A stretch of 64,000 nucleotides of DNA from an uncultured Gammaproteobacteria bacterium (GCA_964536515.1 CAZHXI010000003.1:9112-73111); one strand, 5' to 3'. Shown: positions 20,472 through 24,177, numbered from the stretch's first letter. Notes: generated from the letters alone by a model not told the origin. Numbers and translations are program-made.

Positions 20472-20513
20472 GAGAGGCAGCCGGGGCTGCCTCTCCGTAG
20501 GACCGTGGTCCTA
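20472..20513 (-). terminator. Two adjacent hairpins after the surface-protein gene: GAGAGGCAGCC-ggg-GCTGCCTCTC and the perfect palindrome TAGGACC-gt-GGTCCTA overlapping the stop codon
   Basis: Read directly. The TAGGAC hexamer recurs in the thrS upstream array. Confidence 0.5.
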
Positions 20514-22187
20514 GTCAGCGACTGGAATCTTGGCAATATTGGCGTTGGAAATTCCCATACCGAGCAGCTTCATAGCTTTGAGCAGCTCATCGGCAGATGT
20601 TATCCGGTAGCGCTTTCCGTCCGCCGGGCTCACGTACCACAGCGATCCATCTGCAGCCTCGAGCACCCGACCACGGTATGCCGCCGCTACGTTAGCCCTA
20701 CCCTTCCTTGAGTTGATGTCGCCCACGGCTACCTTCTTCAGCTGCGCGTCGGAAACCTTCAGCGCCAGCTTACGTAGGATAGCCACGCCGTCCCCGTTAT
20801 TGGGCAGCTGGTGGCGAACCAAGGTTTGCGGATTGACGTACCAGGCCTCGCCGCACGACTCAACTTTCAGCAGGATGCGACCGGCGAGCCTCTTAGCCAG
20901 CTTCGCATCGGGGCGGATTACGCCGAGCGGCTTATTCAGCTGCGATAGGCAGGTGGAAGCTCCCAGTACACGTGGGGTCGTTACGGGGAAGGCTACGGTG
21001 GTAGTTCCCAGTACCGTGCCGCCGATGATGCCGGAGTTGAATCCGGGCAACGGGAGCGGAGCTCCGCCGCCACCGCCGCCGCCACCAGAGGGAGGCGTGT
21101 TGATGGTGTACGGGAAGACGCCGACCTCAGAGTGGTACCCCATGGGGTAGCAGGCGATCGCTCGAATGGTCAGCGAGCTCGGCACCGAGATAGCACCTTC
21201 GTACAGCGTACCGTTCGGCTCAACGATAGACTCGGGCATTGCCACCGAGCAGTTCGGCGTAGAGCCATCGGTTGTGTAGCGAATGCTGTCGGCACCCTCG
21301 GCTGCTAGCGCTACGCTCTGGCCGCCGACGTACGTTCCGGCGGGCGGCGTAGCAGATACCTCAGCTACAGCCGGGGGCTCGGTCGGCTCGTCCTTAACTA
21401 CAACCGTGACCTTTGCAATGTTGCTATCTACCTCGCCGTCATTGACCAAGAAGTAGATGTAGTCGGTTCCGATGAAGCCGGCGTCTGGCGTGTACGTGTA
21501 GGCGCCAATGGCCGGAAGGGCGCTGGGGCCAACCTCGCCGTTCGTCGGATCGTAGACCGTGTAGGCCAGCTCGTCGCCGTCCTCATCGGTGGCGGCCAGC
21601 ATGACGGGAATGGCCTGGTCAACCGTGGTAACGTAGTCAGCTGGGTAGGCAACCGGCGCATGGTTCGCCGAGGGCTTAGGCTTGACCTCGATGTATACGG
21701 CGGCCGATTCCGAGGTTAGCTGGCCGTCGCTGACGTTGAACTTGATGAGGTCCGACCCCACGAACCCAGCATCGGGCGTATAGACAATGCCGTAGCCCGT
21801 CGGGCCCGGGAAGGGTGCCGGCTCCCACGTGCCGTGCTCGGGGCCGTACACAATTGCGTAGGCCAGAGCGTCGCCATCCGGGTCGCTGCCGGTGAGCACA
21901 ATGGGGAGCTGCACATCCTGCACCGTGGCGAGCGACTGTGAATCCGCAGTCGGAGCCACGTTGCCGGGATCCACGGGGCATAGGTACGGCAGGACACTCG
22001 GCTCTACGCAGGGATCGGCGGGGATAGCCGGGAGACCGAGATCTACGGGGGCGGAGAAATCGATGTTCTCCTCAACTTGCTCCTGAACAGCCATGACGGC
22101 GGGAGCAGGCATTACACCCACGCCGATGAGGGCGAGGGCGGAGGCAATGCTCAGCGCAGTCCTGGCTGCTCGACGCGTGTTTTTCAT
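20511..22187 (-). CDS. Large secreted/cell-surface protein (558 aa): signal peptide, two cadherin-like/VCBS-type DxDGD repeats, CHB_HEX_C-like (Fn3-like) domain, poly-Gly linker, duplicated about 60-aa C-terminal module
   Basis: Repeats ...SDPDGDALAYAIVYGPEHG...YTPDAGFVGSDLIKFNVSDG... and ...TDEDGDELAYTVYDPTNG...YTPDAGFIGTDYIYFLVNDG.... CHB_HEX_C-like ...IRYTTDGSTP...TIRAIACYPMGYHSEVG...; GGGGGGGG linker. Confidence 0.8.
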   Translation of the reverse strand: MKNTRRAARTALSIASALALIGVGVMPAPAVMAVQEQVEENIDFSAPVDLGLPAIPADPCVEPSVLPYLCPVDPGNVAPTADSQSLATVQDVQLPIVLTGSDPDGDALAYAIVYGPEHGTWEPAPFPGPTGYGIVYTPDAGFVGSDLIKFNVSDGQLTSESAAVYIEVKPKPSANHAPVAYPADYVTTVDQAIPVMLAATDEDGDELAYTVYDPTNGEVGPSALPAIGAYTYTPDAGFIGTDYIYFLVNDGEVDSNIAKVTVVVKDEPTEPPAVAEVSATPPAGTYVGGQSVALAAEGADSIRYTTDGSTPNCSVAMPESIVEPNGTLYEGAISVPSSLTIRAIACYPMGYHSEVGVFPYTINTPPSGGGGGGGGAPLPLPGFNSGIIGGTVLGTTTVAFPVTTPRVLGASTCLSQLNKPLGVIRPDAKLAKRLAGRILLKVESCGEAWYVNPQTLVRHQLPNNGDGVAILRKLALKVSDAQLKKVAVGDINSRKGRANVAAAYRGRVLEAADGSLWYVSPADGKRYRITSADELLKAMKLLGMGISNANIAKIPVAD

Positions 22188-22221
22188 AGGCAGTCAGATA
22201 GTCTGGTTAGCTAGCAACTCA

Positions 22222-22250
22222 TCTATACTGCCATTCCAAAAAAAAGTCAA
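22222..22250 (-). promoter_or_regulatory. Putative sigma70 promoter for surface protein 1 (TTGACT-N17-TATAGA on the minus strand)
   Basis: Hexamers read about 35 nt upstream of the start at 22187. Confidence 0.45.
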
Positions 22251-22308
22251 TGATTCAGAGTGGTCGCTGGGGGCGGCTGAGCCGCCCCCTACGCTGAACC
22301 TACTGGAA

Positions 22309-24177
22309 CTACTGCGCTACTTTGATCTTTGCTAAATCGAGATTGGAAATCGCCAAGCCGACCTTAGACGAGAGCGCAGCTAAATCAGCCGCATTGGCAA
22401 TGACGTAACGCCTGCCATCCAGAGGATTTACGTACCATAGCGATCCATCCGTTGCCTGGAGGAAGCGCCCACGGAAGCTTGCCGGTACCCATACCTTAGG
22501 CTGGTCTGAAACTTGGGTACCGATTGCAATTCGCGTAAGCTGAGCATCGCTTACCTTCAACACCAATCCGCGAATGCCCACGAACTGGCTGGGATCGGTG
22601 GGAAGCTTGTACCGCTTGCCCGTGTTCGGCCCAACGTACCAAATCTCACCGCACGATTCTGTAGCCCTGAGTATTCGCCCCCCTAGCCGCCTGGCGAGCT
22701 TGGCATCTACCTTAGCGGCAGGCGTCGCCGCGGGCGTGCAGCTAGACTCTCCCAGCACCCGTGGGGCAACGGCCGTCGCCACTACCTGCGGTACGGGCGG
22801 CACGAATACGGGCGCGGCATTGCCGAAGCTGGGCAGGGGCAGCGGAGCTCCGCTGCTGACCTTCGGCTTGCCGAAGGTGTACACGAAGTCGGTGACCTCG
22901 GAGCTGTAGCCGTAGTGGTAGCAGGCGATCGCCCTAATGGTTACATCGACGGGGATGCTGAGCGGCGACGAGTAGACGTTGCCGACGCCGCACGCCGGGG
23001 TGCTACCGTCCTTGGTGTACCAGATCGATGTCTCGCCCCACATGGTGGTGGAGGTATTCATCGTCAGGCTCACCATCTGCGGCTCGGAGTACATTCCAGG
23101 TTCGGGAGAAGCCGACACCGGAGCGACGTGGTAGGCGTACGGCCGGTCCTGGACGTCGAACACTGCGGTAGCCGTGGCGGTGGCGCCGTGCGGGTCGGTG
23201 ACCCTGTAGCGGAGCTCATCCTGCCCGACGAAGTTCACGTCGGGGCGGTACTGCGCCCAGACCCACGATAGCCAGTGCGTGCTCGTTGCCTGGCCAGCTA
23301 GGGTCAGCACGCCGTTGTCTACGTTATCCAGAATCTCGAAGGTCAGCGGCTCGCTATCTCGGTCCCTGCCGAGGAGGTTGTTGCCGAGGGGCACGTTCTT
23401 GACCATAGCAATGTACCGCGGAAAGGCGTACGGAGGCTGGTTCCGATCGCTCGGATCCTCGATGGTGTAGGCGAACTCGCCAATGGGCGAGCTGTAGCCG
23501 TAGGCGTAGCACGCCGTCGCTCGAATGGTCGTGCTGGTGGCGAGGTGGACCGACCGCGTCGTGCTGCTGGGCGTTCCGTCGTTGCAGATCGGGTCGCTGC
23601 CGTCGGTGGTGTAACGTACCGCGGGCTGGCCGTAGTACTCGGCCCACTCGGGGTCGATGCTGGGGACCGACAGCTCGACGTGTACGGGCTCGGCGTACGT
23701 GCCGGGCGGCGGCGTCGCCGCTACATCGTAGATCTTGTAGCTCCACTCCCCCGCTCCCACCTCAATCTTCACGCTCGCCTCGTCTGAGGCACCGGCTGGG
23801 TCGGTGGCGCGGTAGCGAATGATATCGGTACCGGTGAAGTTGCTGGCCGGGGTGTACTTGAACCACTGCCAAGAGGCGCGACCGATGTGTCGGACCTCGC
23901 TGACGATTTCAAACGTGCCGTTGGCCGGCAGCTGCAGCACCTCGAAGGCAGCCGCCTCGTCATTCAGGTCGGTCGCCAGGAAGGTGTTCCACAGCGGAAT
24001 GTTCATCGACAGGGCCATGGTGCGCTCGCGAGCGTCCGGCGCGAAGTTGCCCGGTCCTGCACCTGTACCATTCGCGTCGGTAGCCATGGCGCTGGCAGCG
24101 GGCAGCGCGAGCGATAGGACTAGCGTAGCTACAGCGAGGAGGCTCAGCTTGAACCGCCACCGTTTGGGGTAAGGCAT
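22309..24177 (-). CDS. Large secreted/cell-surface protein, paralog of 20511..22187 (622 aa): two Ig-like + CHB_HEX_C-like units and the same duplicated C-terminal module
   Basis: Shares the ...VRYTTDGSDP...TIRATACYAYGYSSPIGEF... and ...IWYTKDGSTP...TIRAIACYHYGYSSEV... domains and the C-terminal AKLARRLGGRILRATESCGEIWYV...GRFLQATDGSLWYVNPLDGRRY... module. Confidence 0.8.
   Translation of the reverse strand: MPYPKRWRFKLSLLAVATLVLSLALPAASAMATDANGTGAGPGNFAPDARERTMALSMNIPLWNTFLATDLNDEAAAFEVLQLPANGTFEIVSEVRHIGRASWQWFKYTPASNFTGTDIIRYRATDPAGASDEASVKIEVGAGEWSYKIYDVAATPPPGTYAEPVHVELSVPSIDPEWAEYYGQPAVRYTTDGSDPICNDGTPSSTTRSVHLATSTTIRATACYAYGYSSPIGEFAYTIEDPSDRNQPPYAFPRYIAMVKNVPLGNNLLGRDRDSEPLTFEILDNVDNGVLTLAGQATSTHWLSWVWAQYRPDVNFVGQDELRYRVTDPHGATATATAVFDVQDRPYAYHVAPVSASPEPGMYSEPQMVSLTMNTSTTMWGETSIWYTKDGSTPACGVGNVYSSPLSIPVDVTIRAIACYHYGYSSEVTDFVYTFGKPKVSSGAPLPLPSFGNAAPVFVPPVPQVVATAVAPRVLGESSCTPAATPAAKVDAKLARRLGGRILRATESCGEIWYVGPNTGKRYKLPTDPSQFVGIRGLVLKVSDAQLTRIAIGTQVSDQPKVWVPASFRGRFLQATDGSLWYVNPLDGRRYVIANAADLAALSSKVGLAISNLDLAKIKVAQ

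What the first reader, a model, noticed from the sequence alone, without database searches (positions are those of the whole stretch)
20511..24177. Tandem paralogous surface proteins sharing a duplicated about 60-aa C-terminal module of unknown function
Both proteins combine DxDGD cadherin/VCBS-like repeats and CHB_HEX_C-like domains with a Gly-rich or Pro-rich linker. Both end in two copies of a motif, roughly GR(I/V)L..ESCGE.WYV.P..G.RY... and ...GR.L.A.DGSLWYV.P.DG.RY.I......L......GL.ISN..LAKI.V. I cannot assign this motif to a known anchoring domain (not LysM, SLH, PG_binding or SPOR). It is a good candidate for a lineage-specific cell-wall/envelope attachment or host-binding module.
Basis: partly seen in the sequence, partly recalled or inferred. 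Interest (0 to 1): 0.55.

Follow-up and report, generated by a model that had tools for sequence, protein, structure and literature searches.

The report
Uncatalogued paired surface module of Patescibacteria
Two neighbouring secreted adhesin-like proteins end in a compact double module that is common in candidate-phyla-radiation bacteria but absent from the domain catalogues, and that probably holds secreted proteins at the cell surface.

Summary
Two adjacent minus-strand genes (558 and 622 aa) encode secreted Big_9/cadherin-like plus CHB_HEX_C proteins. Each ends in two copies of a single ~62-aa module, not two different motifs.

The module has no match in Pfam-A, NCBIfam, PHROGs, PDB sequences, or PDB and viral folds. 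It is not private to this genome. An exhaustive profile search found 3,721 protein clusters, and every source name is Patescibacteria. The consensus is GRILLQVExxGEAWYVNPxDGKRYYLGRPxDAFxxMRxLGLGISNxDLxKIP.

The module almost always comes as a pair, either just after the signal peptide or at the C-terminus. The pair is fused to unrelated extracytoplasmic domains: proteases, nuclease, CAP, DD-carboxypeptidase, NAGPA and others. AlphaFold models the pair as one compact unit (pLDDT 92, pTM 0.84).

The closest known relatives are the repeat domains of the type VII secretion protein EccB. The support is weak but reproducible.

My best reading, inferred and not shown, is a general surface-retention (cell-envelope anchoring) domain. 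The window's copies are divergent members of the family. The ligand is unknown.

The parts
22309..24177 (-). Gene p2: 622-aa secreted protein. Layout: signal peptide, [Big_9-like + CHB_HEX_C-like] x2, Pro-rich linker, module pair.
   Evidence: ORF; Pfam; paralogy to p1; exact protein present in an NCBI record of 81,928 bp.
20511..22187 (-). Gene p1: 558-aa secreted protein. Layout: signal peptide, Big_9 x2, CHB_HEX_C_1, Gly-rich linker, module pair.
   Evidence: ORF; Pfam; paralogy.
24085..24177 (-). p2 signal peptide (residues 1-31, MPYPKRWRFKLSLLAVATLVLSLALPAASA).
   Evidence: Read from the translation; passes a crude charge-plus-hydrophobic-stretch test. No dedicated predictor was available.
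22089..22187 (-). p1 signal peptide (residues ~1-33, MKNTRRAARTALSIASALALIGVGVMPAPAVMA).
   Evidence: Read from the translation; crude test.
21396..21962 (-). p1 Big_9 / cadherin-like Ig domains (residues 76-166 and 175-264).
   Evidence: Pfam Big_9 E 4.4e-24 and Cadherin_5 E 6.2e-13.
21108..21347 (-). p1 CHB_HEX_C_1 / Fn3_assoc domain (residues 281-360), with a Cys313/Cys346 pair.
   Evidence: Pfam E 1.7e-12 and 1.8e-09; Cys positions.
20910..21101 (-). p1 linker (residues 363-426): a G8 run, APLPLPGF, then a PRVLGASTC segment carrying Cys413.
   Evidence: Translation; Cys413 and Cys445 are conserved as Cys480 and Cys509 in p2. A disulfide between them is inferred.
20712..20909 (-). p1 module copy 1 (residues 427-492).
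   Evidence: HMM domain score 100.8 bits; aligned with homologues.
20514..20699 (-). p1 module copy 2 (residues 497-558, the end of the protein).
   Evidence: HMM domain score 105.1 bits; AlphaFold single-module model and pair model.
23452..24054 (-). p2 first Big_9-like (~residues 42-140) and CHB_HEX_C-like (~residues 156-242) unit.
   Evidence: BLASTP to p1 residues 175-365 at 31% identity, E 3e-19; Pfam reports two stretches each for Big_9 and CHB_HEX_C_1. Boundaries are approximate.
22879..23442 (-). p2 second Big_9 (residues 246-339) and CHB_HEX_C_1/Fn3_assoc (residues 358-433).
   Evidence: Pfam E 1.2e-22, 1.3e-16 and 2.8e-11.
22708..22878 (-). p2 Pro-rich linker (residues 434-490), including Cys480.
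   Evidence: Translation.
22510..22707 (-). p2 module copy 1 (residues 491-556).
   Evidence: HMM domain score 101.8 bits.
22312..22497 (-). p2 module copy 2 (residues 561-622, the end of the protein).
   Evidence: HMM domain score 103.8 bits.
22269..22289 (-). Perfect 9-bp G+C hairpin (GGGGGCGGC-TCA-GCCGCCCCC) 20 nt after the p2 stop, with no T-run directly after it.
   Evidence: Read from the sequence. The consensus terminator scan does not call it.
22222..22250 (-). Promoter-like TTGACT, 17 nt, TATAGA, 35 nt upstream of the p1 ATG.
   Evidence: Read from the sequence. The consensus scan does not call it because the last base of the -10 hexamer is not T. It suggests p1 may be transcribed on its own; this is inference only.

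Best explanation
The last ~135 residues of each protein form one compact, two-lobed extracytoplasmic domain. It is built from two copies of a ~62-aa module with the layout short helix, three-stranded beta meander, helix, short strand, short helix. This paired module is an abundant domain of Patescibacteria (CPR) that the catalogues do not hold. Genomes attach it, either just after the signal peptide or at the C-terminus, to many unrelated secreted domains. The most likely job is surface retention. After Sec export the pair would bind non-covalently to a component of the cell's own envelope, either peptidoglycan or a wall-associated polymer. That would keep the passenger domain displayed on the cell. 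Here the passengers are Ig/cadherin-like and CHB_HEX_C adhesin-type domains held out on Gly/Pro-rich spacers. Shown: the module exists, is conserved, is paired, is predicted to fold as a unit, sits in secreted proteins, is fused promiscuously, and is absent from catalogues. Inferred: that it binds, what it binds, and that the target is the cell's own envelope. The module is probably a distant relative of the repeat domains of the type VII secretion protein EccB. Those also occur as packed pairs outside the membrane of a walled bacterium.
For: - **Real and conserved.** The four window copies give HMM scores of 100-105 bits each, and nothing else in the window scores. An exhaustive profile search finds 3,721 cluster representatives at E<=1e-3 and 2,548 at E<=1e-30.
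- **Lineage.** Every name that a source gives to a listed hit is Patescibacteria, Falkow-, Buchanan- or Jacksonbacteria. A DNA pattern for GEAWYVNP hit 120 genome loci, and 119 of them encode real modules. The window itself is Patescibacteria: SecF is ~50% identical to named Parcubacteria/Patescibacteria proteins.
- **The pair is the unit.** 144 of 149 top proteins have exactly two copies and 3 have four. 115 of 125 genome ORFs have two. The AlphaFold pair model has pLDDT 91.8 and pTM 0.84, against 77.6 and 0.54 for one module alone.
- **Secreted and terminal.** 138 of 149 proteins have a signal-peptide-like N-terminus. The pair is N-terminal in 112, C-terminal in 30 and internal in 7.
- **Promiscuous passengers.** Partners include Trypsin_2, NAGPA, CARDB, Pur_ac_phosph_N, SNase, CAP, fn3, Peptidase_S11 (DD-carboxypeptidase), S8, C25 and Transglut_core. 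No Pfam family covers the module itself in 182 proteins scanned.
- **Multiple genes per genome.** Tandem module-bearing genes occur in other genomes (loci L015, L023, L033, L040).
- **EccB link.** EccB5 and EccB1 are the top PDB fold hits for the pair. hhalign of 89 modules against 20 EccB repeats gives Prob 37%, P 3.6e-4 and 41 columns in register. None of 200 column shuffles reaches the observed score of 21.7 (shuffle mean 8.4, sd 1.9). The signal rose when the EccB profile was deepened from 12 to 20 repeats. EccB1 repeats are described as ~55-aa units of a 4-stranded sheet plus 2 helices that pack in pairs (PMC4769845).
Against: - There is no binding data of any kind.
- There is no significant sequence or fold similarity to any experimentally proven wall-binding domain. 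Pfam, NCBIfam and PDB give nothing. PlyCB shows no sequence signal.
- The module was not found in phage lysins. PHROGs and BFVD give nothing. The only IMG/VR hits lie next to a prophage integrase and may be host DNA.
- The EccB similarity is below the usual significance level (Foldseek E 0.11 with TM 0.22; HHalign Prob 37%). EccB's own ligand is unknown.
- Promiscuous terminal fusion fits a host-binding or protein-docking module equally well.
- Module net charge varies (+1.2 +/- 2.9), so there is no clear electrostatic hint.
Confidence: 0.55

Rival explanations
1. The pair is an adhesive (lectin-like) module. It binds the surface of the host or prey cell, or environmental polymers, rather than the bacterium's own envelope.
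For: Patescibacteria are largely episymbionts (established knowledge). In the window the pair sits on adhesin-type Ig/cadherin proteins. The conserved aromatic and charged positions (GEAWYV, KRY, GRP) would suit glycan binding.
Against: The pair is also fused to enzymes that act on the cell's own wall or scavenge for the cell: DD-carboxypeptidase S11, SNase, trypsin-like proteases and phosphatase-type domains. In 112 of 149 proteins it lies directly after the signal peptide, next to the membrane. The sequence is well conserved across very different lineages that presumably have different hosts.
Confidence: 0.2
2. The pair is a protein-protein docking or oligomerisation module. It would plug passengers onto an S-layer, a pilus or a secretion apparatus, or simply act as a rigid structural spacer as proposed for EccB.
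For: The nearest structural relatives, the EccB repeats, are structural parts of a membrane machine. Many family members have a Ca-binding TSP3 linker between the two copies: 43 of 93 and 32 of 89 proteins. The window genes lie next to a TrwB/VirD4-like ATPase and a large membrane protein.
Against: No conserved partner gene was seen next to module genes in the loci inspected. Only module ORFs were analysed, so this test is weak. Stand-alone small proteins consisting of a signal peptide plus one or two modules are very common, which is odd for a docking tag. The link to EccB is itself weak.
Confidence: 0.15
3. The C-terminal region is a secretion or sorting signal, comparable to LPXTG, a T9SS C-terminal domain or PEP-CTERM, that is removed or processed.
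For: It is C-terminal in the two window proteins and in 30 of 149 relatives.
Against: It is N-terminal in 112 of 149 relatives. It is a well-folded 130-aa double domain. There is no LPXTG-type motif, and no hydrophobic tail follows it: the proteins end ...KIPVAD and ...KIKVAQ. No NCBIfam sorting-domain model matches.
Confidence: 0.04

Closest known systems
Repeat domains R1-R4 of EccB (ESX/type VII secretion core component; PDB 3X3M, 5CYU, 6LAR, 7NPS; Pfam T7SS_ESX1_EccB)
   Same: Both are extracytoplasmic units of ~55-62 aa with a small beta sheet plus two helices, and both pack in pairs (PMC4769845; model). EccB chains are the top PDB fold hits for the pair. Profile-profile alignment runs in register from the second strand to the last helix: 'GEAWYVnP..krY.L....dAf..mr.LGLG..IsN.dL.kIP.g' against '..lYV....G.r..i....A.l...LGl..P.v....l..lP.G'. 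It gives Prob 37% and P 3.6e-4, and beats all 200 shuffles.
   Different: The Pfam EccB model does not match at E<=10. Foldseek E is 0.11 with a poor global superposition. The window proteins have no N-terminal membrane helix, no central core domain, only two units rather than four, and no T7SS gene context. The function of the EccB repeats is itself unknown.
Non-covalent cell-wall-binding modules of monoderm bacteria (LysM, SLH, CWB2, SH3b, PG_binding_1, GW, choline-binding repeats)
   Same: The logic of use is the same. These are small modules used in multiple copies, placed at either end of secreted proteins, and fused to many unrelated enzymes and adhesins, with several such proteins per genome.
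   Different: No sequence match to any of these families. The predicted secondary-structure order differs from that of the families named (comparison from established knowledge). Binding to the wall is not demonstrated. One relative carries PG_binding_1 as well as the pair.
PlyCB, the cell-wall-binding subunit of streptococcal phage lysin PlyC (PDB 4F87)
Bacterial Ig-like / cadherin-like adhesins with CHB_HEX_C domains (Pfam Big_9, Cadherin_5, CHB_HEX_C_1, Fn3_assoc)
   Same: The N-terminal two thirds of both proteins are ordinary members of these families.
   Different: These families cover only the passenger part of the proteins. They say nothing about the C-terminal pair.

Membership tests
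Paired ~62-aa 'GEAWYV' module of Patescibacteria (uncatalogued family defined here) | Match to the module profile over its full length | tested here: met
   The window C-terminus finds relatives at E 1e-17 to 1e-12. tblastn of p1 residues ~420-558 matches dozens of genome loci at E 1e-16 to 1e-22 and 28-40% identity. The four copies align without large gaps to 85 homologous modules.
Paired ~62-aa 'GEAWYV' module of Patescibacteria (uncatalogued family defined here) | Occurs as a pair that folds into one unit | tested here: met
   Both window proteins have two copies 4 residues apart. Pairs are the rule in the family. The pair model has pLDDT 91.8 and pTM 0.84.
Paired ~62-aa 'GEAWYV' module of Patescibacteria (uncatalogued family defined here) | Secreted protein, with the pair at one end | tested here: met
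   Both proteins have signal-peptide-like N-termini, and the pair is at the extreme C-terminus. The same holds for 30 of 149 relatives, and the pair is N-terminal in 112 of 149.
EccB repeat domain (Pfam T7SS_ESX1_EccB) | Match to the family's sequence model | tested here: not met
   Pfam scans at E<=1 (whole proteins) and E<=10 (C-termini) do not list the EccB family. hmmsearch of the module profile against EccB chains gives only ~3 bits.
EccB repeat domain (Pfam T7SS_ESX1_EccB) | Remote profile-profile and fold similarity to the repeat unit | tested here: inconclusive
   hhalign gives Prob 37% and P 3.6e-4, and 0 of 200 shuffles reach the score. Foldseek ranks EccB5 and EccB1 first, but at E 0.11-0.43 and TM ~0.2. 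In the reciprocal search with the EccB-repeat HMM, module ORFs are 8 of the top 20 hits while being 2% of the database.
EccB repeat domain (Pfam T7SS_ESX1_EccB) | N-terminal membrane anchor, four repeats around a core domain, T7SS neighbours (EccC, EccD, MycP) | tested here: not met
   Both proteins have a cleavable-type signal peptide, two units and no core domain. The neighbours are a CAP protein, a TrwB-like ATPase and SecDF, with no T7SS genes.
LysM / SLH / PG_binding_1 / SPOR / SH3b / CW_binding and other catalogued wall-binding domains | Match to the Pfam or NCBIfam model | tested here: not met
   No such family appears at E<=10 for the window C-termini or for canonical relatives.
PlyCB-like wall-binding fold | Sequence or fold similarity to PlyCB (4F87) | tested here: not met
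C-terminal sorting signals (LPXTG/sortase, T9SS CTD, PEP-CTERM) | Sorting motif followed by a hydrophobic tail, or a match to a sorting-domain model | tested here: not met
   The proteins end in the folded module (...KIPVAD...KIKVAQ) with no motif or tail. NCBIfam has no such hit.
Big_9 / cadherin-like Ig and CHB_HEX_C_1 domains (passenger part) | Pfam score above the gathering threshold | tested here: met
   Big_9 scores 85.6 and 81.0 bits (cut-off 23.6). CHB_HEX_C_1 scores 47.6 and 60.7 bits (cut-off 22). Cadherin_5 scores 48.8 and 40.4 bits (cut-off 26.5).

The most novel reading that the evidence does not exclude
The paired module is the main non-covalent envelope anchor of Patescibacteria, their counterpart of SLH, LysM or CWB2. 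It would define most of their displayed surface proteome. It would also be truly homologous to the EccB repeat pairs, implying that EccB holds the type VII machine to the wall by the same, still unknown, binding mode.
Probability: 0.3. Interest if true: 0.7.

Novelty: new variant of a known kind. Interest (0 to 1): 0.55.

Why it matters
Patescibacteria make up a large share of bacterial diversity, are mostly uncultured, and live attached to other cells. Their surface proteins are central to that lifestyle and are mostly unannotated.

A profile for this paired module would label thousands of 'hypothetical' secreted proteins as probably surface-retained. It would give a simple handle for listing the displayed enzymes and adhesins of any CPR genome. 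It would also point to one concrete experiment: finding what the pair binds.

If the distant link to EccB repeats holds, that experiment would also bear on the unexplained periplasmic domain of a core type VII secretion component of mycobacteria.

Tried and rejected
- **Catalogue searches, all empty.**
  - Pfam at E<=10 on the C-termini and on canonical relatives. The only weak hits were Fn3_arc at E 0.013, and MBD, Arm-DNA-bind_1 and SH3_15 at E>0.007. All are short, below cut-off and inconsistent with each other.
  - NCBIfam.
  - PDB by sequence and by profile.
  - PHROGs.
- **Fold searches, nothing significant.**
  - The single module against PDB gave at best E 0.57 (CopK). The lambda integrase arm-binding domain reached TMq 0.48 at E~1. 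I considered a DNA-binding-like beta3-alpha fold and dropped it because the proteins are secreted.
  - The pair against PDB and against BFVD gave nothing significant.
- **PlyCB.** No sequence signal.
- **Orthologues of the whole proteins.** The search for related loci with p2 found none in species-representative genomes.
- **Phage connection.** Only 4 IMG/VR contigs match the DNA pattern. Two encode an identical 209-aa protein with a signal peptide and one module, lying just outside an integrase gene. This is probably host flank or a moron, not a lysin.
- **Literature.** No paper contains 'GEAWYV', none links EccB with Patescibacteria, and none found describes such a domain.
- **Promoter and terminator scan.** It called nothing in 20300-24400. 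The hairpin and promoter-like site listed under parts were read by eye.

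
Full report
**1. The observation**

The window has two adjacent minus-strand ORFs at exactly the stated coordinates. They are p1 (20511..22187, 558 aa) and p2 (22309..24177, 622 aa).

They are paralogues, with 40% identity over 399 aa and E 3e-70.

Pfam finds Big_9/Cadherin_5 Ig-like domains and CHB_HEX_C_1/Fn3_assoc domains in both, well above the gathering thresholds. It finds nothing on the last ~135 residues. p1 has two Ig-like domains and one CHB_HEX_C. p2 has the Ig + CHB_HEX_C unit twice.

Both start with signal-peptide-like sequences. 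Both have Gly- or Pro-rich spacers before the C-terminal region.

Cysteines come in pairs: 313/346 and 413/445 in p1, and 198/223, 396/419 and 480/509 in p2. This fits extracytoplasmic proteins. The last pair links the segment just before the first module to the ESCGE turn inside it. A disulfide there is inferred, not shown.

**2. The C-terminal motif is one module used twice**

Aligning the four stretches shows a single ~62-aa module present twice per protein, separated by 4 residues.

| Copy | Residues | Window coordinates |
|---|---|---|
| p1, copy 1 | 427-492 | 20712-20909 |
| p1, copy 2 | 497-558 | 20514-20699 |
| p2, copy 1 | 491-556 | 22510-22707 |
| p2, copy 2 | 561-622 | 22312-22497 |

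- An HMM of the four copies finds only these two ORFs in the six-frame translation of the window. The next hit has E 0.36.
- Copy 1 of p1 is 55% identical to copy 1 of p2. Copy 2 of p1 is 50% identical to copy 2 of p2. The two copies within one protein are only 27% identical.
- The internal duplication is therefore older than the gene duplication.

**3. Not in the catalogues**

- The C-termini have no match in Pfam-A at E<=10 apart from short sub-threshold noise.
- They have none in NCBIfam and none among PDB sequences.
- The same holds for canonical relatives and for profiles of 89 modules or 43 pairs against PDB sequences.
- When 93 and then 89 full-length relatives were scanned against Pfam, the only widely shared family was TSP3_bac, which lies in the linker and was found in 43 and 32 proteins. 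Any family covering the module would have been matched by nearly all of them.
- PHROGs gives nothing.
- Literature searches for the motif string, for EccB plus Patescibacteria, and for CPR surface domains found no description.

**4. The module is abundant, and it belongs to Patescibacteria**

A word-seeded search with the window C-terminus found nine relatives at E down to 1e-17. They revealed the canonical form GRILLQVExxGEAWYVNPxDGKRYYLGRPxDAFxxMRxLGLGISNxDLxKIP.

A profile search listed 120 further short proteins and fragments. Every name given by a source is Patescibacteria, Falkowbacteria or Jacksonbacteria.

The exhaustive HMMER search of 1.84 billion cluster representatives found 3,721 proteins at E<=1e-3 and 2,548 at E<=1e-30.

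About 9 hits would be expected by chance in the whole collection (my calculation from the pattern's information content). 119 of the 120 loci encode real modules.

Record titles of these loci fall into three groups (GC values):
- Named CPR groups: Falkow-, Parcu-, Buchanan-, Jackson- and Uhrbacteria, Paceibacter and Saccharimonadales.
- About 35 third-party MAGs all titled 'uncultured Gammaproteobacteria'. Their GC ranges from 29 to 55%, and I take the title to be a blanket mislabel. I did not test this.
- Single 'Binatia' and 'Bacillota' MAG contigs.

The window itself is Patescibacteria:
- Its SecF is ~50% identical to named Parcubacteria and Patescibacteria proteins. Closer relatives (60-98%) occur only in unnamed metagenome contigs.
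- The neighbourhood looks typical of CPR genomes as I know them: an AMP/thymidine-phosphorylase-family gene, a TrwB-like ATPase with a zinc finger, and SecD with a PPIase insert.
- At ~63% G+C it is unusually GC-rich for the group.
- Its modules are divergent members of the family, 27-50% identical to canonical copies.

**5. Anatomy of the family**

| Feature | Result |
|---|---|
| Copies per protein, best 149 proteins | 144 have two, 3 have four, 2 have three |
| Copies per ORF, 125 genome ORFs | 115 have two |
| Linker between copies | <=10 aa in 37 cases (as in the window); 50-62 aa in 103 cases |
| Position of the pair | within 60 residues of the N-terminus in 112; at the extreme C-terminus in 30; internal in 7 |
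| Signal-peptide-like N-terminus | 138 of 149 |

The long linker usually carries two DxDxDG Ca-binding TSP3 motifs.

Passenger domains are diverse:
- Proteases and related: trypsin-like proteases, subtilase, Peptidase_C25, C39-like, transglutaminase-like.
- Other enzymes: staphylococcal-type nuclease, NAGPA, purple-acid-phosphatase N domain, DD-carboxypeptidase S11.
- Binding or structural domains: CAP, fn3, CARDB, beta-helix, beta-propellers, PA14, Kazal.
- One protein also carries PG_binding_1.

Very many family members are small proteins consisting only of a signal peptide plus one or two modules.

Several genomes have two module genes side by side, as in the window (loci L015, L023, L033, L040).

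**6. Predicted structure**

- One module alone, with 89 sequences in the alignment, gives a moderate model: pLDDT 77.6 and pTM 0.54. The layout is short helix, three strands, helix, short helix.
- The p1 pair, with 43 sequences, gives a confident compact model: pLDDT 91.8 and pTM 0.84. Each lobe has a helix, three strands, a helix, a short strand and a short helix.
- The pair is therefore the folding unit, which explains why the copies travel together.
- Foldseek found no significant match in PDB for the single module (best E 0.57) or for the pair (best E 0.11), and none in BFVD.

**7. The EccB lead**

Five of the twelve best PDB matches for the pair are periplasmic domains of EccB5 or EccB1.

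I recovered five EccB sequences from PDB alignments and cut the repeats at the published boundaries.

| Test | Result |
|---|---|
| HMMER, module profile vs EccB chains | About 3 bits only; the four weak local matches fall one in each repeat, in register |
| hhalign, 89 modules vs 12 EccB repeats | Score 16.8, P 0.0058; 0 of 150 column shuffles reach it |
| hhalign, 89 modules vs 20 EccB repeats | Score 21.7, Prob 37%, P 3.6e-4, 41 columns from the second strand to the last helix; 0 of 200 shuffles reach it (mean 8.4, sd 1.9, max 17.8) |
| hhalign, pair alignment vs 20 EccB repeats | Prob 26% |
| Reciprocal search, EccB-repeat HMM vs 6,234 ORF fragments | Module ORFs (2% of entries) are 8 of the top 20, mostly aligned on the module |
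| hhalign, module profile vs PlyCB | No signal |

I read this as a probable but unproven distant relationship to the EccB repeat unit. It is not membership of the EccB family. The Pfam model does not match, the domain organisation differs, and there is no T7SS context.

**8. Mechanism**

What is shown is a conserved, paired, compactly folding, secreted, terminally placed module. It is fused to many unrelated extracytoplasmic domains and occurs in several genes per genome.

That is the usage pattern of non-covalent envelope-anchoring modules in walled monoderm bacteria, such as LysM, SLH, CWB2 and SH3b (established knowledge).

Fusion to enzymes that act on or for the producing cell favours retention on the cell's own envelope over host binding. 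Those enzymes include a DD-carboxypeptidase, a nuclease, proteases and phosphatase-type domains.

In p1 and p2 the pair would sit in or on the wall. The Gly/Pro spacers would hold the Ig/cadherin-like and CHB_HEX_C domains outward as adhesin-type structures.

I give this 0.55. The rivals are:
- host or prey binding, 0.2;
- protein docking or a purely structural role, 0.15;
- a sorting signal, 0.04.

The ligand is unknown. Nothing here tests binding.

**9. Novelty and verdict**

The window proteins are divergent members of a large domain family that I could not find described or catalogued. The kind of element, a surface-retention module, is familiar. The family and its possible tie to EccB are not.

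Its interpretation is partly supported. It needs the corrections that the module is one unit used as a pair, and that it is Patescibacteria-wide rather than local. The function remains an inference.

Noticed in passing
window 19081-20391 (-): The gene immediately downstream of p1 encodes a CAP (cysteine-rich secretory protein family) domain protein with a long Ala/Pro-rich region and a hydrophobic C-terminus. CAP is one of the recurrent passengers of the paired module in other genomes (6 of 93 and 3 of 89 proteins), but this CAP protein lacks the module.
   Followed up: partly
window 24273-27635 (-): Directly upstream of p2 lies a TrwB/VirD4-like coupling-protein ATPase with a C-terminal treble-clef zinc finger and a Pro/Ala-rich tail (24273-26042). 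It is preceded by a 529-aa membrane protein with no Pfam match (26046-27635). This may be a conserved pair; its function and any link to the surface proteins are unknown.
   Followed up: no
window 29831-31486 (-) and 27698-28867 (-): SecD carries an inserted PPIC-type peptidyl-prolyl isomerase (rotamase) domain at residues ~152-241. A nearby 389-aa protein combines Sigma70 region 4 with a HARE-HTH domain.
   Followed up: no
window 1-64000: No Rfam family reaches its gathering score anywhere in the 64 kb, so there is no tRNA, rRNA or riboswitch match. G+C is ~63%, which is unusually high for Patescibacteria.
   Followed up: no
window 22222-22289 (-): Between the two genes there is a perfect 9-bp G+C hairpin 20 nt after the p2 stop, with no adjacent T-run. 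It is followed by TTGACT, 17 nt, TATAGA upstream of p1. The consensus scans called neither.
   Followed up: partly
L065:774-1625 (-), L068:1367-2344 (+), L062:1216-2076 (-): High-GC genomes (0.59-0.68) encode a signal peptide, a divergent module pair and a staphylococcal-nuclease-type domain, which would be a surface-held nuclease. L068 is titled 'Candidatus Binatia', yet its protein closely resembles the one from Parcubacteria bacterium SG8_24 (L065). The contig may be misbinned.
   Followed up: partly
L001, L004, L006-L008, L021, L022, L027 and about 27 more loci: About 35 third-party-annotated MAG contigs titled 'uncultured Gammaproteobacteria bacterium' carry typical module pairs and have G+C of 29-55%. 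The title looks like a blanket mislabel of Patescibacteria bins. If it is not a mislabel, the module is not confined to Patescibacteria.
   Followed up: no
L124:7995-8624 (+) and L122:5834-6466 (-): Two IMG/VR contigs encode an identical 209-aa protein made of a signal peptide, one module and an unknown C-terminal domain. In L124 it lies just beyond a tyrosine integrase gene, next to replication-initiation and Sak4-like genes. It could be host flank or a prophage cargo gene.
   Followed up: partly
P0132, P0273: A subfamily has four copies (two pairs). It shows a variant motif (GAIWYVD...) and a shortened second copy in each pair. P0273 is a 1,594-aa protein with the four copies at its C-terminus.
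   Followed up: no
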